From Giardia intestinalis (Eukaryota): a stretch of DNA of 64,000 bases. Position 1 is the first letter of the stretch, and each line of letters starts with the position of its first letter. The DNA lies in assembly GCA_000002435.2 (NCBI GenBank), contig CM018791.1; one strand, written 5' to 3'. The notes under the pieces were generated by a model. The model did not search any database, was not told the origin of the DNA, and saw nothing but the letters and a program-made list of their open reading frames with translations. This document shows, piece by piece, positions 17,058-41,709 of the stretch. A program made the position numbers and the translations under genes.

Positions 17058-17228
17058 TTTTTGGGACCGTTTTTTGTTCTCACGACTTTCACTATCCTAT
17101 ACTCTGTTAATAAGACTGATTCGTTGACGAGAAAAGTTGGCTACTCTCTTGCCCTGCTCTCTCCAGAAGATGCAGCAATCTTAGAGGCCGCAGCAAGAGT
17201 CAGCAGTGTCAAGCGTGCAGTTAATGAC

Positions 17229-19359: not shown

Positions 19360-22300
19360 CTAGTCTTCGTGTATAACAATGAAAATATCCCCTGCTGTAA
19401 TTTTCTCTATTTCCTCGGAACATGGAAGAAAGACAGATGATATGGACCCCATCTCCTTACTATAAATGTCTACGAAGATTGGACACTCAATCACCTGTGG
19501 GGATGCCTCATAATAACCAGAGTAGTTTTTATTAGAGAAGTACACTAGTCGCCGGTCGAAGATGTTCTTGGCTCGCAGCCCATCGTACTTCTTCAGAACA
19601 TTGAGCTCCACCACATTGAGCGGCCTTGCCTCCACGAAGTCTGTCTCGGACGAAGACTCTGTTACGGACGACACAGATGTGACACCAGGCTGCTTTCTCA
19701 GGTCGTCACGTGGTGTGGTGTCTCGGGATTCCTCATTGCTGCTGGCATTCACGCTCCTTCGAGAGTTAGACCGAGTACCTAAATCTAAGGTTAGCTTAAT
19801 TCCTAATCTGTTCAAGCGGGCTTTTGGCTGCGTAGATTGCTGTATTTTAGGTGTGTTTGCCATTACGTTCGAATCTGCATGGGTTTCCTGAATCTCGGGG
19901 GGGGGAGTGGGAACAGCGGGTGTAATTGGCTTGCTATTCTGCACAGACTTTGTATTTGGCGTCGCTATGCACGGTCTGCCAGACATTGGGCGAGCCTTGT
20001 TAGCACGCTCATTAGGAGCGCCGACGGCTGAGTTACTATCTCCAGGAAGCCCAACCATCGGAGCTGAGTCATCCGTCCCAGAGAGTGTCATGCTTTGCTC
20101 TGTTTTCATAAAGGAATCATTCATGTTTCTCCTAGCTTGCTCAGAGGCATATATAGTCGATGAAAAATTCCCCAAGCTTATGATAACAGACTTTTTCTTG
20201 TATATCCTCTGCGCAAGAACGCGCATTGCAGGCAGTGGATTGTATATGCTCGTCACGCTTTGGCTGCTTACCTTTCCAATGCTGAGGTCAACGTATGCAG
20301 ACTTAAGTTTCAGACCGGATATCTGAACGTTGTCCCGTTGACGTAGGTTTGCGTACGGGACTATATCATACGCCAATGTGTATTGATCTACGGTCCCACC
20401 AGTGATGTAGCAGGCCTGGGCACGGAATGCAGTGAACAGGGCAGACGGCCGGAAGGTCAACGAGATGTCAATGTTCATATAATTCCGGTCAATCATGGCA
20501 TCGTTATAGTATGATCGCGCTCGGACAAGGTGATTGATCAGCTTGAAGAGATTGTCCACGTGGCGCTGAATCATGAATTGAAGGATATAGTCCGGGATGA
20601 CGTCATATCTAGCGTACCGGATATAGTCCACCAAGTCTTTAACCATGCGATTGTAGAACATTATTTCCTGGTACATAAAGAACATCAAGGGACAGGACTT
20701 CTCATTAGCATCTATCTTGGTATTAATCTCGGTAGGCAACGACAAAGCCAGCTTACGACGGTCATAGTGAATCAATCTAACGTTGTAAGAAATAGATTTT
20801 GCAACAGAGTACATGACCCCAGATCCTAAGGTTGAGTCTAAAAACTCTAGTATCTGCTGCCCCTCTCGCTGGTAAAGATAAATCCTTTCTGGATCAGCAA
20901 GCCCTAAGTGGCGCGGATTGTCTCTAACCGTATTTATATCTACACTAAGAATAGCGTTGCTGATCATCTTCTTCATTGCTGCAGTATCAAATTCACCTCT
21001 GTTATAGAGCTGCGCCGGGTCCTGTAAGAGCATAGTACCTACTTCAGCACGAACATGCCTTGAGCTATATCCAAATACAAACTCCGTTAAGTATTTCAAT
21101 ACAGTACGGTCATGCTGAGTGCCCATTTTCGCACCGTATTTATCAATGATATTCTCAACCAATCTATTGTACAGAACAAGACAATTGTCGTTAAAAACTA
21201 GTTCGTGAGCAAGAATTCGGAAGAACGTAATCAGAACAGATTCCAAGTCGCTCTCGTCAAACGAGCTGTATACAGATGTCCAGCCGTGCGTGCCAAAGGA
21301 ACAGCGACTTATGATCGCAGCTATGGCATAGGAGTTCTTGATAAATAGCGTGCTGATGTCTGTTAACCCTATCGTTGTTTGCATGTGCTCCTCTTTGTAC
21401 TGCTCAATATCAAAGTTGTGTACATCCTTAAACTCAGCCAGATACTTCTGAGACAGTTCCATCGTTCTCTTATAGACGCTTGAAAAGCTGACATCTGAAC
21501 TTCGTTTAAAGGAGATGCAGGCCTGGGCAAAGGAAGATAAACTGGATGCGTCTCCCTCCGCTGTAACAATTAATTTAAAATGCCTAGACACTGGCTTGAA
21601 GTCAGGAATCCCTGTCTGAAGGAGCGTTGCGGCCATTGTGCGCAGAAGTGGAGTAGCAGTGACGCCCGGTGGCATGGGCCCTCCACGTAACGGAGCAGTG
21701 GCACCAATAGGATCCTGATTGACGTCTATAGCAGACATGTTCATGGATGTTGTAGATTGATCTATTGCTGACGCCTCAAAGATAGAGCCATCGCCCACGT
21801 CCATTCGGTAGCTATTGGCCGTTAACGCCGCATAATGTCTGCGCAGATCGTTGTTGACAAAATCAGGAACGAGGTGTGCATTCTGAAGAACTAGCCAAAC
21901 GGGGGAGCCGATGTGCTGCGAGAGAGCGCTCAGGGCCATCTTCTCCGTTCCTTTGCTAAGTGGCAAAACCTTCAGCTCTATGATTGGATTGTCATCGGCA
22001 TAGTTCTCCACATGACTCTTAAGCATAACGCTCTTCTTTGCTTTCACAATGGCCTCGCGAGCGGCTGTGCTAGCCTGCATCAACTGGTAGCTCTCTTGTG
22101 GTAAGAATTGCGAAATAAAGCGAACTGCATCTACGGACGAAGAGTGATTGAAGAGAATAGGCAGCTGGCTATCGCTGATATTGAGAACAGATCCAAAGTT
22201 GAGTCTCTGCACTGCAGACAAACGGATGTTATAACGCTTTATGCTTCTCACAATATAATTGTTGACGGCAATCCGCAGGAATGCGGGCCTGAAGTGTTTG

Positions 22301-25300
22301 ATGAAGAGCAGGAGCAAGTGATCCTCGAAGCGCACGACAGTATCGTTGTCTGTAAATATGTCAGATAACATGAAGGTCTTCATGAGGTCCGTAAATGATG
22401 CAATTACCTTGTCAGAGGATGTAACACTCATGCATCGTTGCCAAACGTTCCAGTGATATATTACAGAGAAAATGATGTTCTGCTGAAGCCCGGGATGATA
22501 TGGCACGTACGGAGCATTTGCAAAAATGTCTAAGCGATCGACTTCGTTTGCTTGGGTAGCTTCGTTATTCGTGTTCAGACAGTACTTCAGTCCTACAGAG
22601 CCTTTAGCCGCCTCAGAGCTTAGGTTAGGAAGAAGCCCTTCAAGGTCGCCCTCAGTATGAGTATGATCTCTTCCAATACAAAATAGACCAGAAATAAGAT
22701 TGGCTGCATGATTGCGTCTTTGCAAAATCTCAGTTGCGGAAATCTTCATAGAGTTCTCTCCGGGGCCTGCGAACGCCTTTCTCATGTCAGATGAAAGGGG
22801 CATGCTCTCCAACTGAGAGCTGTTCCGTACATAAAGCTTTTCTACGTTAAAGAAGCTCTCCTGAATGATAGTTATATCTAGGCTGTTATCAATATTAACC
22901 TTAGCTCCTTCAGCGCCCTTCTCTTGCTGACTCAAAATAGACGGGTGTCCGACGATTCGTGCATAGTCATGGCCCGAGATAATGAGGCATTTTGTCATTA
23001 TCCACAGAAGGGGATCGCTAACCCGCTCCGTATCGAGATATGTAAAGATGTGATAGAGAAACGCCATTGCCGAAGATTCGTCAAATGCAAGTATAAATAG
23101 GGCGATAATTGTCTCGATATACTCGTTATTGTCATGACTGATGCGATTGTGATTCAACTGTTCCAATTCAACGGTCAGATCTGCCATCTCCTTCTCCTCC
23201 ATTAATTCCTGTGTTTTCTCAAAGTTAACCCTACTGGCAATCAAGTCCTCAAAGCTGCAGTTATCTTCTTCCTGTGCTTCCTTTTCAGAGCTCCCTGTCG
23301 CATCGTCATCTGCGCTCTCGGCAACACGAGTTATTGCAAGGGTAGAGGTCCCCATGCGCCTGTCTCCTGTAGCCCCATACGTCTCGGGTAGTGCTACCTT
23401 CGAGCGAGAGGTTGATATGTTGACACTTAGATTAAGAGGACTTTGAGCCCCTGTAAAAGAAGATATCAAGGAACTCATCTGAAGGTTCGGGGTGTTTTGG
23501 TTGCTCATGTAAGGAGAGTTGACCTGAATTGCTGTGGACAAATTGAGAAGATGGGCGTATGCTGCATTCGATGCAAAATTCTGGCTCATGTCGTTATTGC
23601 AGATTATTATCCTCGCCACCACGTGACTGTATGTTTGTAGGCTGAGCTTCAGAAGCTGCCGGAGTCCCAAGAAGATCGACGTGCATATTACCGCAGCGTT
23701 TCTATGTGTATCACGCATCTGCAATATTTTGCGGTGCATCTTCGTGATGAAGGTCAGGCGTCGCTTGATAGAAGCCTTTTGCATCGAGGCCCCGTGAAGG
23801 CTTCCCAAGAGCTCATCAGAAAGTGCCTGTTCAAGACTGCTGTTCATAAGAGTATTAAGTACTTGTAGCTCGAGGATTTTAAGAGAAGACTTTGCGATTG
23901 ACGCTTCAACAACGGCATTTAGATAGCTGCGCTCTATCTTGGGGTTGATGCTCTTTATCATAACTGATATTAGATGATCCTCCATTGCCGCGCGAGACTT
24001 AGCAAATGAAACAATCTGGAAATTGGCGATTATCTCTGGAGAAAGCTGAGAAATAATTGAGAAGTCGTTGCTAAGAAGGATTATGTTGAACGATTTGCTG
24101 AAGAGATAATCGTATCCATGTATCTTTACGACTAAGCTATGCTCCATGACGGCCTGTACGCCCGGGTCCAGAGCATCATGAGTCAGTGTCACTGCTAAAT
24201 CATCGTTGTATGGATTGAATCTAGGGGTGCTTGTTGCACTGAGTTGTGTCCGTGGAGTTGTCGCCGCCGTTCCACTGGTTGTTCGCGGTGTTCGGATGAT
24301 CTTGACTTTGCGTCTTTCTGGTGTCGAGCTAACCACCTGTTTCAACATTCCTAGTGTGTAGCTAGGGGTCCTTGGAATCACCGGTGTGTTAGGAAGCGCA
24401 TCCTCCTTTTCAGGGTTCTCGCTATCTTGAGGTAAAGGGATGTCGTTCATCTGCAAGAATAGGTTTTTGCGTGCAACCTCCAAGTCGCGCTTACTCTGCG
24501 TTTGCTGCGTAGTCAACTCGTTCTCTTCATGGTCTGAGGTTGCATCACAGAATAATAGGCGCGCATCCCATGAGATCTGCTTCAGCACCTCCATTATAAA
24601 TGACGGAATCTCAGACCCCATGTTTGTCACTAAGCAAACTTTTCCGCGAATTCCAGCATCGACAAGCTTCTTGAGCACTGTCGCCTGCTCTTCCGGGGAG
24701 TACTTAACACAAACGATGTTGGGGAGGTTGCTTAGAAAAGTCTCTGCTACTGACTCAGGGTCAAATATGTATGGAGTGTCCACAGAGTTCATTAAGCAAC
24801 CCATTGACTCTGTAGTAGCGTTGTCAGATGGCAAGCAATGCTGCCTCCACATACAGAGCTCCTCATCGTTGTGCAGTCTTACTAGGCCCATATCCACACA
24901 CTCATCTAGAGACGTTGAAGAGCGGGCGTTCTCACTGGGGCTAAGACACATCTTGGAGTCCGTTCTAACTTCGGCTCTGAAGGAGCTTGCTGCACCTAAA
25001 AGAGTAACGAACATAAACTTAACAGATTCTGTTACTGTGGTCGCTAAGCTTGAATGTTCTGTCCTGATCTCAGTGAGTGACTCTTCCCATGTCTCGTGCT
25101 CCACTTCCAAAAGTGTCTTAATACTCTTGACTAGTTTGTAGCGTCCTTCTGCCGTCCGTATCTGAGACTCGAGCTCCTGCTCGATAGCTTTGTTCCTATC
25201 TGCTTCTACCGTAAGCTCTTGTAACAGGGCCTGGAGCTCCTCCAGTTCGGCCTCCTTGATCTCCATGTTCTGTTTGTTGACAATATACTCTTGGCGAGCC

Positions 25301-28300
25301 TTCTCCAAGCGGGCTATCTTCGGCTTAACATTGTCCCACGCAGTGGCGTATTCCACCACTGCAAGGCACCAGCTGCAAATTGTAGTGGCGGCAGTCGAGA
25401 TGGATGATATTTTGGCAGGGTTAAAGTCTGGCGTTGCTGTAATGGCTCTGAATTTGGCAAGGATCTTTGGATTGATTGTTTTTTTGTCATATGCAAGAAG
25501 CGAGGAAATGAGGTTTCCAGAGGATAGGAGTTGCCTAGCTGACGCCCAGTTTGTCGGCTGGTCCATAAGAGCGCAAAGAGCGTTCATAACGAGAACCACA
25601 AGTGGATGTGGATTTGTAAATGTACTCAGCTCTGCAATATCTTGTCTGTTAAGATTCTGAAGAGCCTCATCAGCCTTCTGCAACATAGGGAGAACTCTGT
25701 TAAGCTCCTTCTTGGCCTGCGTCATCTCCACAGTGATGGACTTGTCTTCTATAGTAAGGGCCATTTTCTCAGAGCTGACGACTGCGTGCTGCTCCTGTGC
25801 CAGTAGCTTCTTTGCGGAAAGTTCCGCTAAAATGGATGCTACCTTTTGCTTTTGTTGTTCAAGCTGTGGTTGGAGCTTCTCAAGCTGCATCTCTAGTTCG
25901 CTGGCCTGGGCAGAGCTCTGTGCAAAGAGCTCTAGTCCCTTCTCCAAACGTGCCTCTTGCTCCACCAATTTGAGCTTTCGGTCACTGAACATCTTGTAAT
26001 ATGTACGAAGGAACCGCGCAAAGACTATCGGGGTTTTAATAAGATGCTCGCTTCCCAGCTTGATTCTATAAACTTCTGCTATCGAAGAAAAGACTTGGGC
26101 AAAGCGGTGGAGCATGGTCTGATCGATGTTGCTCTCATTGAGCTTGTGGATCGGGATCAGCCCATCGGCTGACATGCAAAACACCTTTGCTACATCGAGT
26201 GGGAGAAGCTTGACAGCAGAGATACATATCTCGACCATCGGCCAAGTACCTGGGACTTCTACTGTACAGCGTTTAATAACTCCTGGGTAGGTGGTTCTCA
26301 TGCTCTGATAAAGACTCGGCTCGGCCAAGATAACGAGGTGGTAGTTGTTTATAGCCAGAAAATGAGGGTCATCCAGCAATTGTTCTATAAACGGAAGAGC
26401 TGGCTGGACGACAATTGGAGATAGAATAAGGCATGTGGGATCTTCGTTGATGACACAGCAGTTACCGTAGATAAGCTGATAAAGCTCTTGAATATCCAGT
26501 ACCATACGTGGCTTCATCTGAAGAGCTTCGATGGCTACCATGACCGCTTGTTCAACAAAAATCCCTGCCAAGTGCACGACGAGTAAATGGGAGTCAGGCT
26601 TGGCTAGATGATAGGCCAGCTTTAGCATGCGGCGCTTCAGCTCCTGCTGCAATCCACCAACAAGAGGCGAAAACGTGTCGTTATTTGCCACATGTGGACA
26701 TGGCTCTGGAAGGGGAACAGACGGGAGTATCATGCTGTCAAATGAATGGGGAAATGTGCAAGTAACAAGGAAAGAGGGGCTGGTGTGTACCGGTTCAGAG
26801 GAGAATGTTTGGAGAATAGGATGGAGTGTGCTTCCACGATGGCATGGCCCGTTGTTTGCGGCGCCTTCCTTGCTGGATAGCTCATCTAATTGCAAAGGTT
26901 CTGAAACCATATTCTGTTCTGAGTTTAAGTCTGTGCCAATCGAAAGTACCTGTCTATATTGATAATTATTTAGGTCGTAAGAGGCTAAGTTTCCCGTGTG
27001 TAAAAGTATCTCGATCAACGGCACCTTCTGGTCGCCTATTGCCGATGAGGATTGTTGCATCAGTAATTGCATTTTAGACAACTGCAAGCCACTCTGCCTC
27101 AGTTCAGCTATGTCTGAAAGATATGCAGTATCCTGGTTTAGGATGACATCTGGACGCAGCTTGACAGGAACACGGATGGCTGCAGATGGTTTAAGCTCGG
27201 TAACAGTTCCTGACAGATGCCTGATCACGTGATCAACAAGAAAAGCGTCGAGAGTTCTGATAGTTTGATCGGATCTTCCTTGGTAAAGCTCTGCCCGCAG
27301 GCACGAAAGTAGAATCTGTAGGAGACCACGCCGAACGACAGATGTGTTTATAGGGTCTAAAAGAGCGTCCGCAGTCGAAAGGATATTCTTGAATGTGGCC
27401 GGGGTAGTGAACGAAAACCTCCGCAAAAAGGCAAAGAGTTTTGTATAACTGAATTGTAAATCAACTGAACTACTGTGTTCAGAATGGTCAAGCAACAAAC
27501 AGATAACGTTGGTGAAAAGAGGAAGGATGGAAAAGACAACGGGATTAATGTAACTTCTGATATGAGACGCGTTGCTCCAAGCGGTAAACACAGCAGAAAT
27601 CACAGCCGAGACATTCGTAAACGCGCTGCAAGAGACGGTGAGGGAGTGTGCAATACACTTACTCGAGAGCAACGGCGGGCCCACGTTGATAATCTGATAA
27701 TTCCTAACACAATGGAAGCTTGGGGGCGATGATCCAATGTAGACGCCGTTGTTTTGCATGAGGAAGGAGATAAACTCATTGATCGGGAAACAAGTGAATG
27801 CTCCGAGGTTATTGGTTATGGGACGCGCCATATTCATATTGCGTAGGATGAAGAGATTTGTTCCCCCAATAGTGTTGGACGGGGACAGGATCTTATCCTC
27901 ACGTTTGAAGCAGTTTTCAAAGTACTCAACGAATTGCTGCAGGGTTTTATTTGCACCAGAGAATCGCAAAGGAATAGGAAGCGCACTCGCAGTCTGTTGA
28001 AGCAAGGCTGTTAGCATCACCACAACCGCTTCAGCCCCAAAGCCAGATATTTGAAGATATATATTGCTTGCCGGCAATATCTGCAGCTGGTCACGGGCAG
28101 AGATGTTTGTCACGGGCTGGATGGTTCCTGGAAGGTTGCTACTTGATGCTGCAAAGCCAACGTCTCGTGACCCCCCAGGTCCAGTCATAGCGGCAAGAGC
28201 TGCAATACTTGCAGGGTTGATAGTGTTCATGGTCATGCTAGAGGCAGTGCTTCCGTGTTTGCTGGAGTTCTTTTTACCCAGTGGCTCTCGAGCAGAAGGC

Positions 28301-31300: not shown

Positions 31301-34300
31301 TGCTTTGGTTTGGCTTTGCTGTTTGTACTAATAAGAATGGCGTCCAGATTCGTGAAAAAGAAACGAAACTTGCGGCCCAGGTCTTGCGCTGTAGCAAATC
31401 CGTGCATTAGAAATAGTCCTGCGGCGATATAGTCTATATCTGGCTTTATGATCATGAGGGGCCTAAACAGGGCCATTGTGTTCCCCGGTAGCTCTATACG
31501 ATTGGTAAAGATATACGAGCTTTGATTCATTGTAATAAACACTGATGCTGACGAACGGAGACGGATGGCGGTCGAAGCTACAGCTTCGCCGGGCGAACCT
31601 TGGTTCCTATCTTCTTCAGCCTCGTGGCCTGCCAGAGCGTCACTACCATCTGTCAAGTTAACGTATATTTCCTTCCTTCTTATGGCCTGCTGAATACAAA
31701 CGATAAGCTTCGAAATCACCGAGAGAGTTTCAAGAGTCAGTCGGTTGAACTCGTCTAAGCAGAGAATAGAGCCGGTGGCCGCCATGCCCATAAAGATCCT
31801 AACAACTGTGCTGTAATCCAACGCTTCTGTGCAGTTCAGGACTATACAGAACCGGCCCAGCGAGCGTGCAAAGTCCTTAGAGATCTCTGTCTTCCCGGTT
31901 CCTGCATTTCCGATGAGACTATTGCCCTTTAGGAGGTGCTGCATTGTATCAAGAAATATTTGGCGATATGAGTCAATGGTCGGGGAAATAATGAGTCGAG
32001 GGATCTGCCCATGATACTCGTAGTAATATGCGGCGTAAGCATTGTCGAAAAGATAATAATAAGGTTTCTTTTGATACGCATTGAGCCTCTCTAACTTTGC
32101 TGAAGAGACGGTTCGCTCGCTTTCCTCTAACGTCATGTACATCTTGCCCTCTGAGGCATTGAACGTATAACACACCATATTAGACTCACAATCCATATCC
32201 TGCTGCAACTGGTCTCTCTTTCGCTCAAGAAGGTCCCTTATATATAATTCAGTTGCTAGCAAGGGGAACACACCTGCTGGGCTTATCTTAGCTGGCTGGC
32301 CGGTGCCTGCCAGAGAAGCCATCGGACTTGCTTGCGCAGCAGAAGATCGAAGTAAGTCGTCCATAGAGTTATTGGCTAATTGACTGCGCAAAGATTGACC
32401 CTTCAGTGGAGAGGCTTGTGGACGCTTTGGAGTCTTTTGCTGCACAACTGAAGCTGTGCCATCGGCAGGTTGATTGCCATTAGAGCCAGAGATAGCCACA
32501 ATGTTATTTCTGGTAATTCCGATAAGAAGGCTCAGGATGTATTCTTGGATTTCCAAGAGAGCCTCAACTATCTGTAGCTTAGACAGCACTCCATCCCGAT
32601 CACTGCTGGATCGACTGCTTTGATTTAGGACTCCCCTGATTGTGTCGTCTGGATTAACCCTGGTCTTATCAGCGAGAAGCGACGCACTCAAGGCCGATGT
32701 TCCTGCACTGGTGTTGGATGGGCGCTTATAAAAGGACGACGCATTCTCAAACTCTTGCGGGTAATTGATGAAAAACCACGTCACGCATTGTCTAACAACG
32801 CTGATAACCTGGACCGGGTATGATGCAATAAAGTTCAGAAACACCTCAGAAGAGAAGTTTATCCGCAAGGTGATTTCCCTCTGGTGCACCGATAGCTTTG
32901 AATCGCCAAAGTTTGCGGTTAGGGAGCTGTGCCCAGGCGTTGCTATATTCTTAGTTGATATACTGTGATCATGAAGCGGCAGTCTATCGAAAATTATAGA
33001 GACCATGCTGCGGAGCTCAGGCGCGTGCTGCTGTACAGCAGATCCCATCATTGTCTGTAGGGTATTAGATATGCGGGTATCCAAGGCTGATAGCCATACG
33101 TCAGGAGACCCTCTTATGCGTATGTCCTTCTCGGACGTTGGTTGCATAAGCATGAGTGCTTCACCCTCACGTGACCGTACCCCCTTTAAGTAGAGCGAGC
33201 GAACATCGTGCTCAGTCTTTGTTTCGCAGATAAGAGACGTCACATTCTCAAAGCAGTTCTGAAGAGTACGGGTCAGAAGAGTTGGATCAAAGGGCGCCCC
33301 ATGGGCCGTCTCGTCCTGTGCACTCAGAACTATTAGGAGTTCATTATCAGAAAGGAAAAAGAAGCGCATGAACTGGCGGCGTTTTATATCCAGGTACTTC
33401 AGAATGTTGGCATAGATGGCATCGAGATCGGTTTGCCATCCCATGATACTATGAATTGTATCTTTTGTACACCACACAGCTACCTTTTGAGTCCTTGCCA
33501 CAGAATTCATAAGCGAGAGGTAGTGCTTCACGAGCTTGGTGAAAGTCCGCATATCCTCGGGCAGCTGGCGGACAATCGGGCTTGATGGAGCAAAGATGCG
33601 TAGAACAGCGATGAACTTTCGCTGATACAGATCCCAGATGAGAATTGCATCCTGGCATACAGTGCAGGTATTCTTAATATTGATAAGTTCGCGCATGGCA
33701 GGGTTGTCGCCCAGCCGCATGAATTGAGATTCAAGTGTGTTTAGCTCTGTTTTGACATCATTAAGTACGTTTTCGACAGTGTCGGTCAAGGTGATCAGAT
33801 AGACCTGCTGGCTGAGAGAGGCGTGATCTGTAGAAAGGGTTCCTGTGTAGGGTATAAGTGGCAATGTCAATCCATCCAGTTCTTGCTTCAGCTTGGAAAG
33901 ACTGCTAAGCAAGCTGTACTCGAGCTCAATTGAGCGCATAAAGAGGAGAAAGCTGTTCATGACGCTCGTCTCCAAAATCCCGCGATATACAAGGCGATTA
34001 ATAGAAGCGGTGAAGCGGTCCATTTCTATAAAAAGGCCACCATATCTAATTTCTGCACGCTTCTTGGCTCTTCTTCGGAAATATTCCTCCTTTTCTGCAT
34101 CAGAACCAAAGATCTTATAGCAGACGTTATAGAGCATATCGGTGCTATAAATAGAGGGCCGTTGAAGGATGAAAGAATAATTTGTCATCTGCGAGATCAG
34201 CACTTTAGAATCTGCCACATCCTTTTCGCTTCTGACGTCCCCAAATTGCTCACTAATGACATAGGCCTCTGATTTCGTTATCCAGGCCTTCCGTGCAGCT

Positions 34301-37300
34301 AAGTGGGCAAGGTATTTGGCCTGCACTGCCTGTACATGAGTTGCAACTGTGCTAACGCTGAGAGAAAAGTTTCCTGACATCTTTGCCTTGATGTTTTGTT
34401 GTTCAGCCTCTTCCTCTCTGTCTGAAAGGTCCTCGTCATTGTCATCCTCTTCAACGCTAGCGTATAAATTGAGCATAATCTTGTTATGATCAAGCGATTG
34501 TTGAGCTCGTGATCCCGCTGCGCCAGAGCTGCCCCCAATGATGTTGGAGCTCAGCATAATAAGCTCTGCAATGCTATCGGACTCTGATCCGAACAGGACT
34601 CGGTAAACGTTGTGCTGCTCTGGGGAGAGAATCTCAAAGAGTGGTAGCTCCTTGTAGTCCAGTTCTAGCATGAGAAATCTGGATGACATTAGTTTGTATT
34701 CCAAAAGTAAATTGGGTGAGCGTAGATATTCACGGGTGAGCATTTTGAAATGTCGTGGCTGGAATGCAATCGAGGAAATGAACTTGAATTGGGGCAAAAG
34801 AGTCTCGATTCTCTCTAGGAGCTCTATTGTTAGTGTGAGAAGGGAGGGAGGCTGTAGGTAATAATTAATTGCCTCAAGCATCGTTGGTTCAGGCTGATTT
34901 CGCTTAAAGTCATCTATTCCTTCAAACTCGCTAAAATTATATAGTAAGGGTTCTATCCTGTCCTGCTTTTTGTATTGAACGAGGACTGTTTCTGGATCGT
35001 AATTGTCAAGATTTTGAGCCATAGAGGCGGGTATGACGACTTTGCCCCGGGTCTCAAGGGTTGTCACGTCTGTGATGCTAACGCTAACGCCTGTACTAGT
35101 TGGAAGTTCTGTGGTAAGAGAGATGTCCTCGTCAGCTGCCGAATCAAAGTCAGAATCGTCTGGAAGCTGATCATTATGGTAGCCAAGTATGCCCTTACCT
35201 TGTAGTTCGTATTGGTCACTAATAGTCTTGCCCATCGAGCGTTGGGATTGACGCAGAGAATGTAAAAACTCTCCTGTCTTGACTATCTTTCCGTTTTTAA
35301 GCATCTTTCCTTGAGAATGCAACATTTCATCGAGTAGTGCCCGGTCTGCAACCACCTCTTTGTATATTAGTAGCAGATATTTGAGGACTGTCCTATTAAT
35401 TTCTCCGGCCACAGAAGTCGGTGGCTCCTCGTGATTATCTCCATAGGAACACTCAAGCACGCAGTCAGTAATCACTGTAGGATCAAGCAGATGGGATTCC
35501 AGGAATGGTCTGAAAAGAGCCTCTAATAGTAGTATGTCCTCTTCTGGCGATTCATGAGGGGCATCATTCCTTTGGCTTTCAAAGGCCAGCTCATCGTGAT
35601 GTGCTTTCTGAGCAATGCGATGGGCAGTGATTCGCGCTTTCAGATCCAATTCGCCCAGATTCATGCAAATACTAGTGAACTTAGCTTCATCATAGATTGC
35701 TTGAAACCGTGCTCTTAACCCCGTAAAAACACGCTTAATGGCTCTTACCTTCCGCCCAACAGAAGGATAGTCAACCATGCAAAGAGGCCTCGAAAAGTCG
35801 TTCTTAATGAGGAGGTTCAATCCGTGCATGAAAAGCCAGAAGTCCCGCCTGATCTTACCAATCCGTCTGATTGCCCTAATAACAAACTCAGACTCGACTA
35901 TAGCAGTGGGGGAGAGCTTCCTAGTGACAGTACGGATGTGCTGGGGGACGGGTTCTCCGGGTTGTTCTTCTATCTCTTTTGCCGACTGGAGCACAAGGTC
36001 CAGTGCCTCAGTGGTAAAATCATCCTCCTCAGCTATCTGCTGTATGCTCACGGCAGGCTGATCGAGTGAGCCACTAGGAGATGGGCCATCCTTTTGTGGC
36101 TCCTGGATATTGTCTGCAGGGCATCGGCTGGTAACGCCCTCTCCCTCGTGGAGAGTGTCGGGCTCGCCCAAATAAACATCTCTGTAATAATAGCTTATAA
36201 CAGTCTCCTCCGGCATAAAGAATTCTGTGCTTTCAAACAGGTGGATACACTGATAAAAGTACAGGCTTTCATCATCGATGGTCATAGAGGCCTGAAGCGC
36301 ATTAATAAAGAACTCGTACCTGTGTCTACATACAGCAGAGCCTGTCGAAATGGGAGCCTCGAAAACATCGGGCCCCTCTAGATTGGTTTGATTAAGTAAG
36401 TAGTAAAAGAGTTCAGTTGGTGTCCGTATTGCTCCGATAGAAGAAATGTCTGCGCAACCAGGGTGCTCGTTGAGTGGGTCTTCGAGACTTTGACCATCAT
36501 CATTCTCAGCGGACTGAGAACCGATCACCATTTGATCAACGTCTAGAATTGCTTTGAGGGAGTCATAACAAAGCCTCTGGAGTTTGAAAAATAGAACAAT
36601 GAGGTCGTAACGGAAGACAGAGTAAAGGCGAGTGCGCTTATCTGCAAATCTGGCCAACAAAAGATCAAACATTTGCAGGGATCTATCAAAATCTTTCATT
36701 GCCTCATTGCAATTAGGGTCCTCCTTGAACTTGAAAAACTTCTCAAAGTAGTCCTGTACCCCTTCTACAGCACCTGCATCACTAATGATATTCTTGTAAA
36801 TGGCAAGCTCGCTCATTACTTCACACTTCCTGTACAGCTCATGAAAGAGCCTATGCTCAATTTTGGCCTCCTCAAAGTATTGCAGAACGTCTTTTGTCTG
36901 CAAGAGCTTGTCTTTATCAATCACTTGTGTGGTGATCTCCTCGTTTCTGAGAAAGTCAATATCGCTTAAGGCGGCATTATTGAAGGTCATCGCGGTGAAG
37001 CTTTTATCTGGTATTTTCTTCAGCTCTGCAGTGTAAAAGCCTATCTTGTGGATACAATTCTTGGCAACAATAAGAATCGTCTTGGGAATAGACAACCTAA
37101 CAAACTGTAGGAGCTTTATCATGATTGGCAGAAGCGCAGAAGCAATCGGAGTTGAATCTACCTGGAAGCAAAGGATACATCGCTTGACCCGTAGCTTTGT
37201 CAGAGATAAAACAACGTGTTCAATGGAATCGATGCGAGACCTGAATAAATATGGGTTCAACTCTGTAATCAAACGAAGAAATGCACTTCTAACAAAGTTG

Positions 37301-40300
37301 TCAGATTCTGGCAATAAAGGTACAGTTCTGTTGTTTAAATGCTGGAGACCTGCCTGATAGCGAGCTGTTTCATCCATTTCTGGGACTTCGTCAATAGGGG
37401 ATGCAAGACCGTTAGATGGAAATGCGTAATTGGTCATCATCCTAAAATCAAATTCGGAAGCTAGCTGGCATAGAAATGCATAGTCGTTTGCGTACTCTTC
37501 GGCAGCCCGCCGGTGTGTGTATGAAATGCCCGGGTGTTCTTCTGTAAGTAGCTGCAAGCTCTTGTCAGAGGACTCGGACTCCTCAGAGTGCTGATTCAGT
37601 ACTGGTTTGGCAGCGCGTGTTGTAAAGCTGACGGTATGTGACGCAATTGGAACCTTTTGCTGCATAAGCTGTTGAATAAGCCCTTCGTCGCTCAATCGGC
37701 TAATGCAGTCACTCACGCCCACAAGAAGATCCAAGAATCCGACGGCATACTCACGAATCTTATCGCATCCGTGCTCTAGGTGCTGCTTAAGCGCCCTTAT
37801 TCCATTGGTATACTCCCCATACTCACCTAAAATGTCTTTGATTGATATTCCTACCAGCGGGGCGTGAGCTCCACTGTCCGAAAAGAAGGAAGAAAGCTTC
37901 ACGAAGCTCATGGGCCGGATTGACCGGTGAACACATGTAGCATAGTCAGACAACACGTCTCCTATAAAATTGATAAAGTCAGTACGGGACGGGTACATGC
38001 ACAAGCCTTCCATAGTTAGGATAAGTTGGATATTGAAAATGGGTGCCGGCGGCAGCCTACCATCAAGGATATACAGGGGAACTCCCGTGAACTTCCTGAC
38101 ATTAATAGCGCTCTCGGTGTTTGGAACTAACACAGCTATCTGCGTCAAAAGATGGCTAATGTCCTCATTGCGCTCTTGACGAAGGTCAATGGTTGTGAGG
38201 CTTTGCTCCTTCTCTTGCTGCTTCTTTTGCAGAATGGGGTTTTCTACAGAGCTCTTCTTTGCTAGGGCAGTGGGTCCTAAATCATCATAGATATCTAGTG
38301 AATCCTCTCCTTTACGATTAGCGAGAATGGAACTTTTTATCTTCCCAACAAGTAACGCCGCTATACTCTGGTCTCCTCCTCCTCCATCTATGGAAGTCTC
38401 TTGGAGCTTGACATAGCGAGCTAATCTAATGGAATCAATGAATGGGAAATCATTAGCAGACTCGCTGGCGATACGCGATAAATCGCTGGCGCACGATTTC
38501 ACAAACTGACTCAGAAGCAGGTAGTCGTCTTTTTTCACAGTCGCCTTTGCTTCGTTATCTAGATGATGAAGCACCTCGTGTGAGGCATTCTTTTGCTTAT
38601 CAGCTCCTTGTGCTAAGTATTTTTGGACCTTTGGCGGGTTTATAAGGAGTCTGCGCCCACCATCCTCTTGGAGCAAGTTGAGATCTTCTTGTGTCAACTC
38701 CCGGATGCTCTGGGGCGCCGTTGATTCTTGTTCGCGGGGGATGCATGGCACACCGAAAAATAAATCCATTAGATCGTCATTTGCTTGAAGTAAGAGTTCA
38801 AGCATGAACTTAACCATCATATAATCGACCAGACGAATCATTGCCCGCACTCTAGACATGTTAAATACGGAATAGCTCGATAGCGTAGACAGTATTGCTT
38901 TCGAATTGCGCTTCTGCGCCTTTTTAGAATCGTGACTAACATCAGAACGACCCTTGACAGACGCTGGGCCGACTTGTTGCTGCGCTTTGGCGCTAGAAAC
39001 TCCAGACGAAGAAGCGCTTTCTGATGCACTCTGCTGAATGATACGACCATGGACCTGCTGCTGCACTTGCTTTCCCAGCACTAGAAGGATTTCGGAGATC
39101 GTTGTAATATAGTTGCCCAGAAGAGACTTGACGGCAGTGATCCGGTTGCGCGACTCCACTACGAACTGCTTGAGAGTTATGGTGCTTGGAACATTGGTCA
39201 TAGTTACGTACAAAGCCTCTGCTCTCTTTTTATCCAGGCCCAATCTGGTTAAGTATGTTGGAAGAAATTCAAAGCAGTACTTCTTAAAGGGAACAAAGCG
39301 GAGCTCTAATGAAAACTGGTAGCACAAACTGTGAATTTCCTGGAGCGGGCCCAGGAAGACGTTACTGGCCAAAAGGCTGGAGCGTGTCAGTGCCGAAATG
39401 GACTTATTACGAGCTGTAGTCGCTATGCTGTGCTTCCAGAGGCTCAAGTACTTTCGCTGCCTAAAGGTGGAGAAAAAGTTGTTCCTCCGTAACTCGAGGT
39501 AGTATCTGCGCTCCCTTTCCCAATCAGCGATGCTTAGAAGCTGTGTTGTCTTAGTGGCTGGCTCCTGATAGCATATACCGTTGCAAGAAAGAGTAAAGTA
39601 CCGATCTGGGTTGATTTGGTGATATGCACAGACCAGCAGCTCGTATGGGTTCTGCCATGGATGTGATTGTGCGTAGACCTGTGACACGTCACAAGCAGCC
39701 GCTGGGCAATGTACATTCTCAACGGAGGAGTGACTGCGAGGAGTTTTTCTCCCAGACGGTGTGTCTGATGAGATTTGCCCTCTGGCAAAAGCATCGGCGG
39801 CAGTGTAACCTACTTCAGCATGACTTAAAATCATTTGGCGGACAGAGGGGATATCATATGTAAGATAAATAAATTCGGATTGCATGAGTCCACTTGCAAT
39901 AAGCTCAGGAGAGGCGTTAAGAAAGGCCTCGTACTGAGTCTTAAGGCCCGTGTAGTAGGTTTCTGCATACATCATGAGTTCGTAGGAAGTAGTATAGCTA
40001 AAAGAGCTTCGATCGCCATCCAAATTCTTAAAGTAGTTACGGAGCTCCCTGCAAATATCAAACTTTTGGTTATGAGAGTAACCTTTGGCCAGTTGAAAGG
40101 GGGACTCTGTAAATTTGGTAGAGAAGCTCGACTTTCGTAATCCTCCTGGGGACCCGTGCACGGAATGCCCTGTGGCAGAGTCGGCTATAACTTGCTCGCC
40201 ATTAACATCTTGGCAGATGATACGCTCAATCTCCGCGCGTTCTTTAATACACTTAAAGATTGGAAGTACTGCGTCTATCTCGATAATAGCTTTTGTCAGT

Positions 40301-41709
40301 GGGTCAGCAGAGCCATCTGCACACTCCTCTGTTGGAAGGGTAGCAGCTTGCTGTAGCGCATCGTTGCTTGGTGCGTGAATGGGGACAGGAGTTGCTGAGC
40401 TGAGATCCTGTTTAGCCGATTTAGTTGTTTTTCTGAGGGATGCACTGGATGCAGAGCCTGCTCGGCTTTTAATCACCCAATCTGACATAGACCGTGTAAT
40501 TTTCTTAATCCCTTGGGACAGCTTTTCGTCCGGTCCTTCCAAGGCGTCCTGTCCTCGTGATCCGCTATGATCTGCAGTACCTGAAATGCTGCTAGAGTAC
40601 CCCATTTCGCTAGCACTGCGTATCTTGCCAGTAAACTTATATTTCTTGTTTAAGCCTCTAGTGTAGCTACTAAGCGCTGTGCTGGGCCGGACCGCGTCCA
40701 GCGCCATCTTACTGTTCTGCTCATACAGCTTGCAGCCCTGTAGCTGCCCAGGATCGACCACAAACTCTGATTTTCTTCCTGTGCGCTTAAACTCCTCTAT
40801 ACGTCGCTGTAGTGCTAGCTCTGGAGGATTGTCTCCTGATGGACCACTTTGGGCACCTGTGAAGGTCAGTCTATCACCGTATGACGAGTCTGCAGTGCCC
40901 CCGGTGCGTTCACGCCGGATCCTGGAGGTAAGCTGAGTGGTACTAGTCGGCCTTCGAAGGACCCCTGAGCTAAGAGGTGTAACTCTCAACGTATCTTCTA
41001 ATATCTCACTTTCATCAACGTGACCTGCATTGGTTCCGAGTAATGCAGAAGCAATACTGTCACGACTGACACGTCCATAAATGTCAACTGTGCAAAGTGG
41101 AGAAGACTCTAATGCTTTCTGAGCATCTTGGCGTCGATAGCGCTCTGGAGAAAGCTGGTACTGGGATAAAAACTGCTGCGTGGGCTCAGAGCCAACGTCA
41201 TGAAGGCGAAGAGACTGGCCTGTTGCTGAGGCACCGGGTGGTTGGTTTGTTTCTTGTGCAGCTTTAGTGTACAGCCTTTTAGATGAAACCAAACGGCCTA
41301 CCGGGCCCAGCAAAGCCTGAGGGCCGTTACCTGCCGAGCTATCTCGCTCCTTTCTCTTTGTAATAGCAGTGTCGTAGCAGCGTTCTAAGGGAAGAAGTAG
41401 AGAGCCAGTGGAGACTTGATTGAGACGCTCCCCGAAGACAAGTGGGGGCACGGCTGTGGATCCGACTGGTTTGAGAGGCGGCTGCGCACCCATAGGTGGA
41501 GGTGACGAGTAAAGCTTGGCAGCGGGGTTGGGCGGTGTCTGGGCCGAGCTGGGACGTTGGGCCCGGGACCCTATAATAGCAGTGTTAGGAGTTGTGTTTG
41601 ACGAGATGTGTTGTGTTCGTAAGCTAGTGGTTGGTCTTCCAGTATGTGAAAGAGCTGATTGTGGCCGTGTGGTTCTAGCAGCTCCAGTGACATCATATGT
41701 GTCAACCAT
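19360..41709 (-). CDS. Giant (7449 aa) divergent dynein heavy chain family protein
   Basis: Uninterrupted 22.3-kb ORF. AAA1: [35 protein letters not shown]...[10 protein letters not shown]...[49 protein letters not shown] (P-loop encoded at 31885..31917 on the - strand) matches dynein GPAGTGKTET...FNCS..LDY...DEFNR...ITMNPGY.GR.ELP.NLK.LFRP..M..PD. AAA2: [14 protein letters not shown]...[15 protein letters not shown]...DGIFS...[35 protein letters not shown]...STLSRCGI matches dynein AAA2 (VLDGP.D..WIEN.N.VLDDNK.L.L..GE.I......ATVSRCGM). About 3270 aa precede AAA1 and about 4150 follow it. Confidence 0.93.
   Translation of the reverse strand: [7449 protein letters not shown]

What the first reader, a model, noticed from the sequence alone, without database searches (positions are those of the whole stretch)
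19360..41709. 7449-aa intron-less dynein-heavy-chain-like giant with degenerate AAA2 and about 2.8 kb-equivalent extra sequence on both sides of the motor
AAA1 has a good Walker A and dynein-specific flanks, but sits about 3270 aa from the N-terminus; canonical dynein heavy chains have it around 1900 aa. About 4150 aa follow it, against about 2700 in canonical heavy chains.

The first ~500 aa are S/T/P-rich low complexity, and the AAA2 P-loop is degenerate (GSRNTFKT). This is an extreme, lineage-specific member of the dynein heavy chain family, possibly a non-motile scaffold, or DNHD1-like.
Basis: partly seen in the sequence, partly recalled or inferred. Interest (0 to 1): 0.6.

Follow-up and report, generated by a model that had tools for sequence, protein, structure and literature searches.

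The report
Giant divergent Giardia dynein heavy chain

Summary
The window holds an uninterrupted 7449-aa ORF at 19360-41709(-). It is 100% identical to Giardia intestinalis WB XP_001704936.1/A8BT70, and its mass of 834.7 kDa matches GL50803_42285. Collinear orthologues exist in other assemblages and in G. muris (6840 aa, 44% identity). dN/dS is about 0.05 overall and at most 0.11 in every segment, so the gene is neither decaying nor an assembly artefact.

A full dynein layout is present: linker, AAA1, AAA2, stalk/MTBD/strut, AAA5, AAA6 and the C-terminal domain. AAA3 and AAA4 survive only as weak, collinear remnants. GNAGTGKT in AAA1 is the only strict Walker A in the protein, and the AAA1 catalytic motifs are intact. 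AAA2, AAA3 and AAA4 have all lost their P-loops.

The stalk/MTBD has canonical length and is the best conserved region. The tail (aa 670-1325) is homologous specifically to single-headed inner-arm dynein tails, best to DNAH6/dynein-g orthologues. The roughly 3,300 extra residues are many constrained, lineage-specific insertions, not two flanking blocks.

It does not resemble DNHD1 or DNAHX, whose AAA1 sites are degenerate. Most likely it is an AAA1-driven, microtubule-binding inner-arm-type dynein. Localisation and motility are untested. Interest is modest.

The parts
19360..41709 (-). Complete ORF, 7449 aa plus stop. Equals G. intestinalis WB XP_001704936.1/A8BT70 'Ciliary dynein heavy chain 11'; equated with GL50803_42285 (834.7 kDa) by mass and annotation name.
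40030..41709 (-). aa 1-560: S/T/P/Q-rich N-terminal extension with no family match. M1 and the first motifs are conserved in all four Giardia lineages. dN/dS 0.11.
37735..39702 (-). aa 670-1325: tail region homologous to the N-terminal tail of single-headed inner-arm dyneins (DNAH6/dynein-g type), interrupted by a Giardia-specific insertion of about 220 aa.
   Evidence: BLAST. hhalign Prob 98.2, E 5e-14. IAD HMM iE 3e-16, and 8e-15 for G. muris. PDB profile search hits only IAD chains, best 8glv_Fm at 3.7e-12; 8glv_Fm is the Chlamydomonas DNAH6 orthologue.
33922..37734 (-). aa 1326-2596: rest of the tail. Conserved within Giardia, with only weak collinear profile matches to IAD tails (E 0.05-0.3).
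33022..33921 (-). aa 2597-2896: linker (DHC_N2).
   Evidence: Pfam E 3.9e-34. Canonical HMM iE 2e-34.
31351..32043 (-). aa 3223-3453: AAA1 with Walker A GNAGTGKT (nt 31888-31911), Walker B LDEFNR and sensor-1 ITMN intact. Contains an insertion of about 25 aa.
29533..30279 (-). aa 3811-4059: AAA2 large domain. P-loop degenerate, GSRNTFKT (nt 30130-30153). Arginine-finger motif SRCG kept. Contains a K/E-rich insertion of about 60 aa.
26350..29532 (-). aa 4060-5120: AAA2 lid and strongly degenerate AAA3 and AAA4. AAA3 remnant around aa 4555-4680, with GFGAE for GSGKT and ILRNMN for FCDEIN. AAA4 remnant around aa 5028-5050, with HLLVVHLAGIF. No P-loops.
   Evidence: No HMM or Pfam hit. hhalign collinear but weak, E 0.046 and 0.21. 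Only G. muris found in 1.84e9 representatives. AF2 model unusable.
24577..26349 (-). aa 5121-5711: AAA4 lid, stalk coiled coil, microtubule-binding domain, strut and start of AAA5. Canonical length. Most conserved region among Giardia species. Lacks the 13-aa flap present in the inner-arm dynein profile.
   Evidence: Pfam MT E 1.4e-22. HMM iE 6.5e-84. Conservation. Flap.
23530..24141 (-). aa 5857-6060: AAA5 (AAA_9).
20197..22311 (-). aa 6467-7171: AAA6, lid and C-terminal domain. Divergent.
   Evidence: HMM iE 2e-15. Pfam Dynein_C 25.8 bits, at the cutoff; Dynein_heavy and AAA_lid_11 below cutoff.
19363..20196 (-). aa 7172-7449: low-complexity insertion (aa 7205-7300), then a conserved C-terminal end that by eye resembles the last strands of the canonical dynein C-terminal domain.
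   Evidence: The resemblance to the canonical C-terminus is by eye only.

Best explanation
The ORF is the annotated Giardia intestinalis WB gene for a giant dynein heavy chain. It descends from a single-headed inner-arm axonemal dynein, closest to the IAD5/DNAH6/dynein-g type, and in the Giardia lineage it gained about 3,300 residues of constrained insertions.

Proposed mechanism:
1. The inner-arm-type tail anchors the protein, probably with actin and a light chain, to an axonemal doublet.
2. AAA1, the only intact nucleotide site, binds and hydrolyses ATP.
3. The canonical-length stalk and conserved microtubule-binding domain couple that cycle to binding and release of the neighbouring microtubule, with the conserved linker as lever.
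4. AAA2, AAA3 and AAA4 have become structural ring modules without nucleotide regulation.

Shown: gene identity, purifying selection, domain map, motif states and tail homology. Inferred: axonemal location, ATPase activity and force production.
For: - Identity: the protein is 100% identical to XP_001704936.1/A8BT70. Its computed mass of 834.73 kDa matches GL50803_42285 [834.7 kDa] in PMC5597967.
- Real and constrained: collinear orthologues exist in assemblage B, a third lineage and G. muris. dN/dS is 0.048 overall and at most 0.11 per segment. Synteny is kept in assemblage B.
- Architecture: six collinear HMM blocks run from linker to C-terminal domain, with matching Pfam hits.
- Catalytic site: AAA1 Walker A, Walker B, sensor-1 and the AAA2 arginine-finger motif are conserved to G. 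muris. This is the only strict Walker A in the protein.
- Stalk/MTBD: it aligns with only a one-residue gap and is the most conserved region, 94-98% between assemblages and 60-69% to G. muris.
- Tail class, local tests: hhalign gives E 5e-14 against single-headed IAD tails and no tail hit against OAD, I1, dynein-1 or dynein-2 tails. The IAD HMM gives iE 3e-16.
- Tail class, solved structures: the PDB profile search hits only IAD chains. The best is the Chlamydomonas DNAH6 orthologue, followed by mammalian DNAH6.
- Motor class: the motor's best solved-structure matches are DNAH6 at 352 bits, against 311 for the next human paralogue.
- Literature: the protein was recovered in the Giardia actin and 14-3-3 interactomes (PMC5597967). 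Monomeric inner-arm dyneins carry actin, and Giardia actin pulls down axonemal heavy chains and p28 (PMC8552679).
Against: - The motor blocks are about 2.0-2.3 substitutions per site from every dynein class, so the motor alone cannot be placed. In Chlamydomonas and trypanosomatids an I1-beta-type chain scores as well as or better than IAD5.
- The MTBD lacks the 13-residue flap that is a match state in my inner-arm dynein profile.
- DNAH6-type chains keep P-loops in AAA1-3. This protein keeps only AAA1. In cytoplasmic dynein, from my own knowledge, AAA3 nucleotide state gates microtubule release, so a dead AAA3 could mean a slow or tightly bound motor.
- AAA3 and AAA4 are supported only by weak collinear profile matches. 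The structure prediction failed.
- No localisation, ATPase or motility data were found in the literature searched.
- The proteomic evidence is thin: one peptide in a mitosome-enriched fraction.
Confidence: 0.6

Rival explanations
1. It is a non-motile dynein-derived scaffold or regulator, analogous to sea-urchin DNAHX or mammalian DNHD1. The ring would be locked and used structurally, for example in axoneme assembly or as a static microtubule tether, and the insertions would provide docking surfaces.
For: - There are many insertions throughout tail and motor, as described for DNAHX and DNHD1.
- Three of the four usual nucleotide sites are lost.
- AAA3 and AAA4 are degenerate beyond HMM detection.
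- The motor is extremely divergent.
Against: - DNAHX and DNHD1 are characterised by degenerate AAA1 motifs, and DNAHX also by insertions that disrupt the stalk/MTBD (PMC11785096).
- Here the AAA1 Walker A, Walker B, sensor-1 and arginine finger are intact and conserved over the G. intestinalis-G. muris distance.
- The stalk/MTBD is indel-free and is the most constrained region.
- It has no special sequence affinity to the DNAHX-like hits P0116 and P0118.
Confidence: 0.25
2. It is a dynein that has left the canonical 96-nm axonemal repeat. It would work on Giardia-specific microtubule structures (cytoplasmic axoneme segments, ventral disc, funis, median body) or take over cytoplasmic tasks, since Giardia is reported to lack cytoplasmic dynein 1.
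For: - Kollmar 2016 reports that Giardia has no DHC1, and mentions orphan diplomonad dyneins (PMC5100056).
- About 1,660 extra tail residues, including a 560-aa N-terminal extension, could provide new cargo or anchor sites.
- The MTBD is of the flap-less type seen outside single-headed inner arms.
- The protein has been detected in non-flagellar fractions and in the actin/14-3-3 interactome.
Against: - The only recognisable tail homology is to inner-arm dynein tails, which dock on doublets.
- Kollmar argues that orphans with axonemal-type tails are axonemal.
- Actin association is itself typical of inner-arm dyneins.
- No localisation data were found.
Confidence: 0.14
3. It is a decaying pseudogene, a fused gene model or an assembly artefact that happens to stay open.
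For: - The length is exceptional.
- Low-complexity stretches are present.
- Several modules fall below Pfam thresholds.
Against: - An open, collinear ORF exists in four Giardia lineages and dozens of independent assemblies.
- dN/dS is at most 0.11 in every segment, although dS is saturated.
- The start codon and N-terminal motifs are conserved.
- There are no internal repeats.
- Peptides have been detected.
Confidence: 0.01

Closest known systems
Single-headed inner-arm dynein heavy chains of the IAD5 class (human DNAH6/DNAH14, Chlamydomonas dynein g; Kollmar class DHC9)
   Same: - The tail region aa 670-1325 is homologous.
- No DHC_N1 match.
- DNAH6 is the best motor match among solved structures.
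- The overall order is the same: linker, six AAA modules, stalk, C-terminal domain.
- Actin association is reported.
   Different: - It is about 3,300 aa longer.
- Only AAA1 keeps a P-loop, whereas DNAH6-type chains keep AAA1-3.
- AAA3 and AAA4 are barely recognisable.
- The MTBD lacks the 13-aa flap.
- The motor is too divergent to group with the class by distance.
DNAHX (sea urchin) and DNHD1 (mammals), proposed non-motile dynein heavy chains
   Same: Both are oversized heavy chains with many insertions in tail and motor and with loss of nucleotide-site motifs.
   Different: - In those proteins AAA1 is the degenerate site, and in DNAHX the stalk/MTBD is also disrupted.
- Here AAA1 and the stalk/MTBD are the best preserved parts.
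- DNAHX derives from an outer-arm heavy chain (OAD-alpha in the paper's naming), whereas this protein has an inner-arm-type tail.
- There is no sequence affinity between them.
'Orphan' dyneins of diplomonads in Kollmar 2016 (PMC5100056)
   Same: These are Giardia and Spironucleus heavy chains that fall outside the 17 classes, most with tails alignable to one of the nine classical classes. This gene is very probably one of them.
   Different: I could not confirm which orphan it is, because the supplement is not held. The paper gives no anatomy for it. My search found no detectable orthologue outside Giardia for the AAA3-4 region.

Membership tests
Dynein heavy chain (motor architecture) | Linker domain (DHC_N2) preceding AAA1 | tested here: met
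   Pfam PF08393 E 3.9e-34 at aa 2596-2889. Canonical HMM iE 2e-34.
Dynein heavy chain (motor architecture) | AAA1 with Walker A, Walker B and sensor-1, and an arginine finger from AAA2 | tested here: met
   GNAGTGKT, LDEFNR, ITMN and SRCG are conserved in all Giardia orthologues.
Dynein heavy chain (motor architecture) | AAA2, AAA3 and AAA4 modules with nucleotide-binding loops | tested here: not met
   - The AAA2 large domain is present (iE 1e-43), but its P-loop reads GSRNTFKT.
- AAA3 and AAA4 are seen only as weak collinear remnants without Lys/Thr or Asp-Glu (E 0.046 and 0.21).
- No Pfam AAA_7, AAA_5 or AAA_8 hit in this stretch.
- The modules are probably present; the sites are lost.
Dynein heavy chain (motor architecture) | Antiparallel coiled-coil stalk with microtubule-binding domain, plus strut | tested here: met
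   Pfam MT E 1.4e-22. The HMM block aa 5121-5711 has iE 6.5e-84 with essentially no indels.
Dynein heavy chain (motor architecture) | AAA5, AAA6 and the C-terminal domain | tested here: met
   - AAA_9 E 2.9e-15.
- HMM blocks at aa 5857-6060 (iE 9e-13) and aa 6467-7171 (iE 2e-15).
- Dynein_C scores 25.8 bits against a cutoff of 25.7.
- Dynein_heavy and AAA_lid_11 fall below cutoff.
Single-headed inner-arm dynein, IAD5/DNAH6/dynein g | Class-specific N-terminal tail | tested here: met
   hhalign E 5e-14 against IAD tails only. IAD HMM iE 3e-16. In the PDB only IAD chains are hit, led by DNAH6 orthologues.
Single-headed inner-arm dynein, IAD5/DNAH6/dynein g | Motor domain groups with the class in phylogeny | tested here: inconclusive
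   DNAH6 is the best PDB match at 352 bits. However, distances to all classes are saturated at 2.0-2.3, and I1-beta scores similarly in protists. No maximum-likelihood tree could be run.
Single-headed inner-arm dynein, IAD5/DNAH6/dynein g | MTBD flap between H2 and H3, typical of single-headed inner-arm dyneins (a match state in my 13-sequence profile) | tested here: not met
   A 13-residue gap at exactly that place.
Single-headed inner-arm dynein, IAD5/DNAH6/dynein g | Association with actin and a light chain (p28 or centrin), and location in the inner arm row | not testable with these tools
   Literature only. GL50803_42285 is listed among actin and 14-3-3 interactors (PMC5597967). No localisation was found.
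DNHD1/DNAHX-type non-motile heavy chains | Degenerate AAA1 catalytic motifs | tested here: not met
   The AAA1 motifs are intact. The criterion comes from PMC11785096.
DNHD1/DNAHX-type non-motile heavy chains | Insertions that disrupt the stalk/MTBD | tested here: not met
   No insertions occur in the stalk or MTBD.
DNHD1/DNAHX-type non-motile heavy chains | Closer in sequence to these families than to canonical dyneins | tested here: not met
   The DNAHX-like P0116 and P0118 reach E 9e-24 and 1e-7, against 8e-100 for canonical chains. A DNHD1 sequence itself was not available for direct comparison.

The most novel reading that the evidence does not exclude
Giardia evolved a one-ATP-site dynein on an inner-arm chassis. 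About 3,300 residues of selectively maintained insertions adapt it to a Giardia-specific job, such as working on the long cytoplasmic axoneme segments, the ventral disc or the median body, or partly substituting for the missing cytoplasmic dynein 1. It would be a natural experiment showing that a dynein can cycle without nucleotide at AAA2, AAA3 and AAA4.
Probability: 0.2. Interest if true: 0.6.

Novelty: new variant of a known kind. Interest (0 to 1): 0.3.

Why it matters
The gene itself is not a discovery. It has been in the Giardia WB annotation under an uninformative automatic name, and it appears in two proteomic lists. It was absent from the classic dynein census of Wickstead and Gull, and is probably one of Kollmar's unclassified diplomonad orphans.

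What is added here is its anatomy:
- an inner-arm (DNAH6-type) tail;
- an intact AAA1 and stalk/MTBD;
- loss of all other nucleotide sites;
- insertions under purifying selection.

If it is an active motor, it would be a natural test of how much of dynein's multi-site regulation is dispensable. It could also be relevant to the differentiated beating of Giardia's four flagellar pairs. If it is inactive, it would be a third, independent origin of a non-motile dynein, with a different pattern of decay from DNAHX and DNHD1.

Tried and rejected
- AlphaFold2 of aa 4050-5130 with the four-sequence Giardia alignment gave mean pLDDT 29. The model was unusable, so no fold search was run.
- The word-indexed protein search with the tail alignment A1 returned nothing, not even the Giardia proteins themselves. 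This is uninformative and that search was wasted.
- The full HMMER search of 1.84 billion representatives with the AAA3-4 profile found only G. muris. It gave no outside orthologue and no link to canonical AAA3/AAA4.
- hhalign of the Giardia N-terminus and AAA3-4 region against a mixed canonical alignment gave only non-significant hits. The tail signal appeared only once class-specific tail alignments were used.
- P0112 (Aduncisulcus) looked closest by distance. It is an ordinary IFT dynein-2, and the short distance was an artefact of its partial length.
- The distance-based placement of the motor was abandoned because distances to all classes are saturated.
- The odd long hits P0111, P0115 and P0117 are no closer to the query than canonical dyneins.
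- Internal duplication as a source of the extra length was excluded by self-BLAST.
- The supplement of Kollmar 2016 is not held, so the CyMoBase name of this gene could not be checked.
- Which canonical inner-arm classes Giardia otherwise encodes could not be established with these tools.
Full report
**1. Observation**

The window carries one uninterrupted ORF at 19360-41709 on the minus strand, with an ATG start and 7449 codons. Base composition across it is uniform at about 46-49% G+C.

- The only strict Walker A in the protein, GNAGTGKT, lies at aa 3267-3274.
- GSRNTFKT lies at aa 3853-3860.
- The first ~560 residues are rich in S/T/P/Q/G/N, with several low-complexity runs.

**2. Identity**

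The organism is Giardia. The translation is 100% identical to XP_001704936.1 / UniProt A8BT70, 'Ciliary dynein heavy chain 11' of G. intestinalis WB.

Its computed mass is 834.73 kDa. This equals the 834.7 kDa quoted for GL50803_42285, a 'dynein heavy-chain protein' present in both the actin and the 14-3-3 interactomes (PMC5597967). The same identifier and name occur with one peptide in a mitosome-fraction proteome (PMC3044749). The link between the window ORF and that identifier rests on the exact mass plus the annotation name.

The gene is missing from the Giardia heavy-chain list of Wickstead and Gull 2007. Kollmar 2016 mentions unclassified 'orphan' diplomonad dyneins. This is very likely one of them, but I could not verify that.

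**3. Is the gene real and functional?**

Orthologues are collinear over the whole length:
- 7448 aa in assemblage B (85% identity);
- 7473 aa in a third lineage (80%);
- 6840 aa in G. muris (44%).

Dozens of independent assemblies give the same length. A 7377-aa variant is only a gene call from Met73. That residue is not conserved, while Met1 and the following motifs are.

Against the assemblage B locus, Nei-Gojobori dN/dS is 0.048 overall. It lies between 0.016 and 0.11 in every segment where dS was computable, including the N-terminal low-complexity part and all insertion segments. dS was incalculable for three segments, among them AAA1 and AAA5. dS is saturated, so the ratios are approximate. 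Flanking genes are syntenic in assemblage B. The pseudogene and artefact readings are therefore excluded.

**4. Anatomy**

Pfam gives DHC_N2, AAA_6, MT and AAA_9 above threshold, and Dynein_C at threshold. Dynein_heavy and AAA_lid_11 are weak. There is no DHC_N1, AAA_7 or AAA_8.

An HMM built from 30 canonical heavy chains finds six collinear blocks:

| Block | Residues |
|---|---|
| Linker | aa 2597-2896 |
| AAA1 | aa 3223-3453 |
| AAA2 | aa 3811-4059 |
| AAA4 lid / stalk / MTBD / strut | aa 5121-5711 |
| AAA5 | aa 5857-6060 |
| AAA6 + C-terminal domain | aa 6467-7171 |

Comparing block spacing with the HMM gives the extra residues:

| Position | Extra residues (approx.) |
|---|---|
| Linker to AAA1 | 200 |
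| AAA1 to AAA2 | 280 |
| AAA2 to AAA4 lid | 415 |
| After the strut | 140 |
| AAA5 to AAA6 | 280 |
| Within AAA6 / C-terminal domain | 120 |
| Before the C-terminal end | 230 |

There are also smaller insertions inside AAA1 (about 25 aa) and AAA2 (about 60 aa, K/E-rich).

The tail is about 1,660 aa longer than an inner-arm dynein tail. The excess is therefore distributed, not two flanking blocks.

The canonical blocks are the best conserved parts: 88-93% between assemblages and 47-58% to G. muris. The insertions are more variable, at 68-80% and 17-36%, and they account for most of the shortening in G. muris.

**5. Nucleotide sites**

AAA1 keeps Walker A (GNAGTGKTE), Walker B (CLDEFNR), sensor-1 (ITMN) and the FRP motif. 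AAA2 keeps the SRCG arginine-finger motif. All of these are conserved in G. muris.

The AAA2 Walker A is G-x4-F-K-T in every Giardia sequence.

The 1,061 residues between AAA2 and the AAA4 lid match no dynein HMM. They also match nothing outside Giardia in a full HMMER scan of 1.84 billion representatives.

Profile-profile alignment nevertheless places two remnants at the expected positions and in the expected order:
- AAA3: SGFGAEA..IPLRFSG..NLFILRNMN..YQIINVGPP aligns against PGSGKT..VGLNFSS..LVLFCDEIN..IQFVGACNP (E 0.046).
- AAA4: KPDSHLLVVHLAG aligns against QPQGHLLLIGVSG (E 0.21).

I read this as six ring modules present, with AAA2-4 nucleotide binding lost. The AAA3/4 part is an inference from weak matches. 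The AlphaFold2 attempt failed with pLDDT 29.

**6. Stalk and MTBD**

From the AAA4 lid through CC1, the MTBD and CC2 to the strut, the alignment to the canonical HMM has only a one-residue gap. This is the most conserved region of the protein.

Against a profile of single-headed inner-arm dyneins, the MTBD lacks the 13-residue segment between H2 and H3 that those dyneins carry.

**7. Ancestry**

BLAST of the first 2,600 residues hits only the N-terminal tails of 4,000-4,200-aa heavy chains that classify as DNAH6- or DNAH7-like.

hhalign of the Giardia N-terminal alignment against class-specific tail alignments gives Prob 98.2, E 5e-14 over 371 columns for single-headed inner-arm tails. Further weak hits follow in collinear order. 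There is no tail hit for outer-arm, I1-alpha, I1-beta, dynein-1 or dynein-2 tails. The linker matches all classes, and inner-arm best.

An inner-arm HMM finds the tail in both G. intestinalis (iE 3e-16) and G. muris (iE 8e-15).

A profile of aa 560-1760 searched against all PDB sequences hits only inner-arm heavy chains. The leaders are 8glv_Fm (3.7e-12), trypanosomatid chains and mammalian DNAH6. 8glv_Fm is the Chlamydomonas orthologue of DNAH6.

The motor half also scores best against DNAH6 among solved chains: 352 bits, against 311 for DNAH12 and 286 for DNAH1. A Chlamydomonas I1-beta chain reaches 341 bits.

Distances over 1,864 aligned motor columns are saturated at 2.0-2.3 for all classes. 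So the tail places the protein, and the motor does not contradict it but cannot confirm it.

**8. Mechanism**

The preserved parts are exactly those needed for a minimal dynein cycle: the linker, the AAA1 site with its trans-acting arginine, a stalk of unchanged length and register, and the MTBD. The tail is of the type that docks monomeric dyneins, with actin, on doublet microtubules. The actin-interactome detection fits this.

I therefore favour an AAA1-driven, microtubule-binding inner-arm-type dynein (confidence about 0.6 for the whole statement).

The rivals are:
- A non-motile scaffold (0.25). This is disfavoured because the decay pattern is the opposite of that in DNAHX and DNHD1.
- A dynein redeployed outside the 96-nm repeat (0.14). 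This is attractive because Giardia lacks dynein 1, because the MTBD is flap-less, and because the tail has large novel parts.

**9. Comparison and novelty**

The protein is a member of the dynein heavy chain family. The closest class is IAD5/DNAH6. It differs in size, in keeping a single P-loop, in its near-unrecognisable AAA3/4, and in the missing flap.

The gene is public and named, so the existence of a 'giant dynein-like ORF' is not new. Its classification and anatomy do not appear in the literature I could search. I rate it a new variant of a known kind, of modest interest (0.3).

Noticed in passing
window 2146-8607 (+); repeat array 2185-8476: A variant-specific surface protein gene. It has a signal peptide, CXXC-rich units and the canonical C-terminal CRGKA. 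It contains 28 perfectly identical tandem copies of a 225-bp (75-aa) unit. G+C is about 0.63-0.65, against about 0.47 for the surroundings. The repeat also produces spurious ORFs of over 2,000 aa on the opposite strand.
   Followed up: partly
window 41891-50083 (+): A 2730-aa ORF transcribed divergently from the dynein gene, 181 bp away, with no Pfam match at E<0.01. A 2727-aa counterpart sits in the same position in assemblage B. It is a large uncharacterised Giardia protein.
   Followed up: no
window 15708-17057 (-): A 449-aa ORF with an NYD-SP28 ('sperm tail') domain, E 1e-9, of the kind I recall from nexin-dynein regulatory complex subunits. It is an axonemal gene two genes away from the dynein heavy chain and is syntenic in assemblage B. 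This is probably coincidence.
   Followed up: no
window 17061-19337 (+): A 758-aa ORF, listed with a TTG start, immediately downstream of the dynein stop codon and convergent with it. It has no Pfam match. Assemblage B has a 773-aa gene in the same place, so the true start is probably an upstream ATG.
   Followed up: no
window 50104-51705 (-), 62210-63988 (-), 60246-62156 (-), 58557-60242 (+): Two EGF-repeat cysteine-rich ORFs (high-cysteine membrane protein type), a papain-family cysteine protease and a DEAD-box helicase. G+C rises to 0.54-0.63 over 58-64 kb.
   Followed up: no
protein cluster of P0001 (public assemblies): Many Logan and ENA assemblies call this gene from Met73 (7377 aa). That Met is not conserved in assemblage B or the third lineage, whereas Met1 and the first 70 residues are. 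The shorter model is therefore a gene-calling artefact.
   Followed up: yes
hits P0111 (7006 aa, Batrachochytrium), P0115 (6116 aa, JGI metagenome), P0117 (6824 aa, Chlamydomonas eustigma): Other oversized, domain-poor dynein-like proteins from unrelated lineages turned up in the homology search. They are no closer to the Giardia protein than canonical dyneins are. This suggests that giant divergent heavy chains arose repeatedly.
   Followed up: partly
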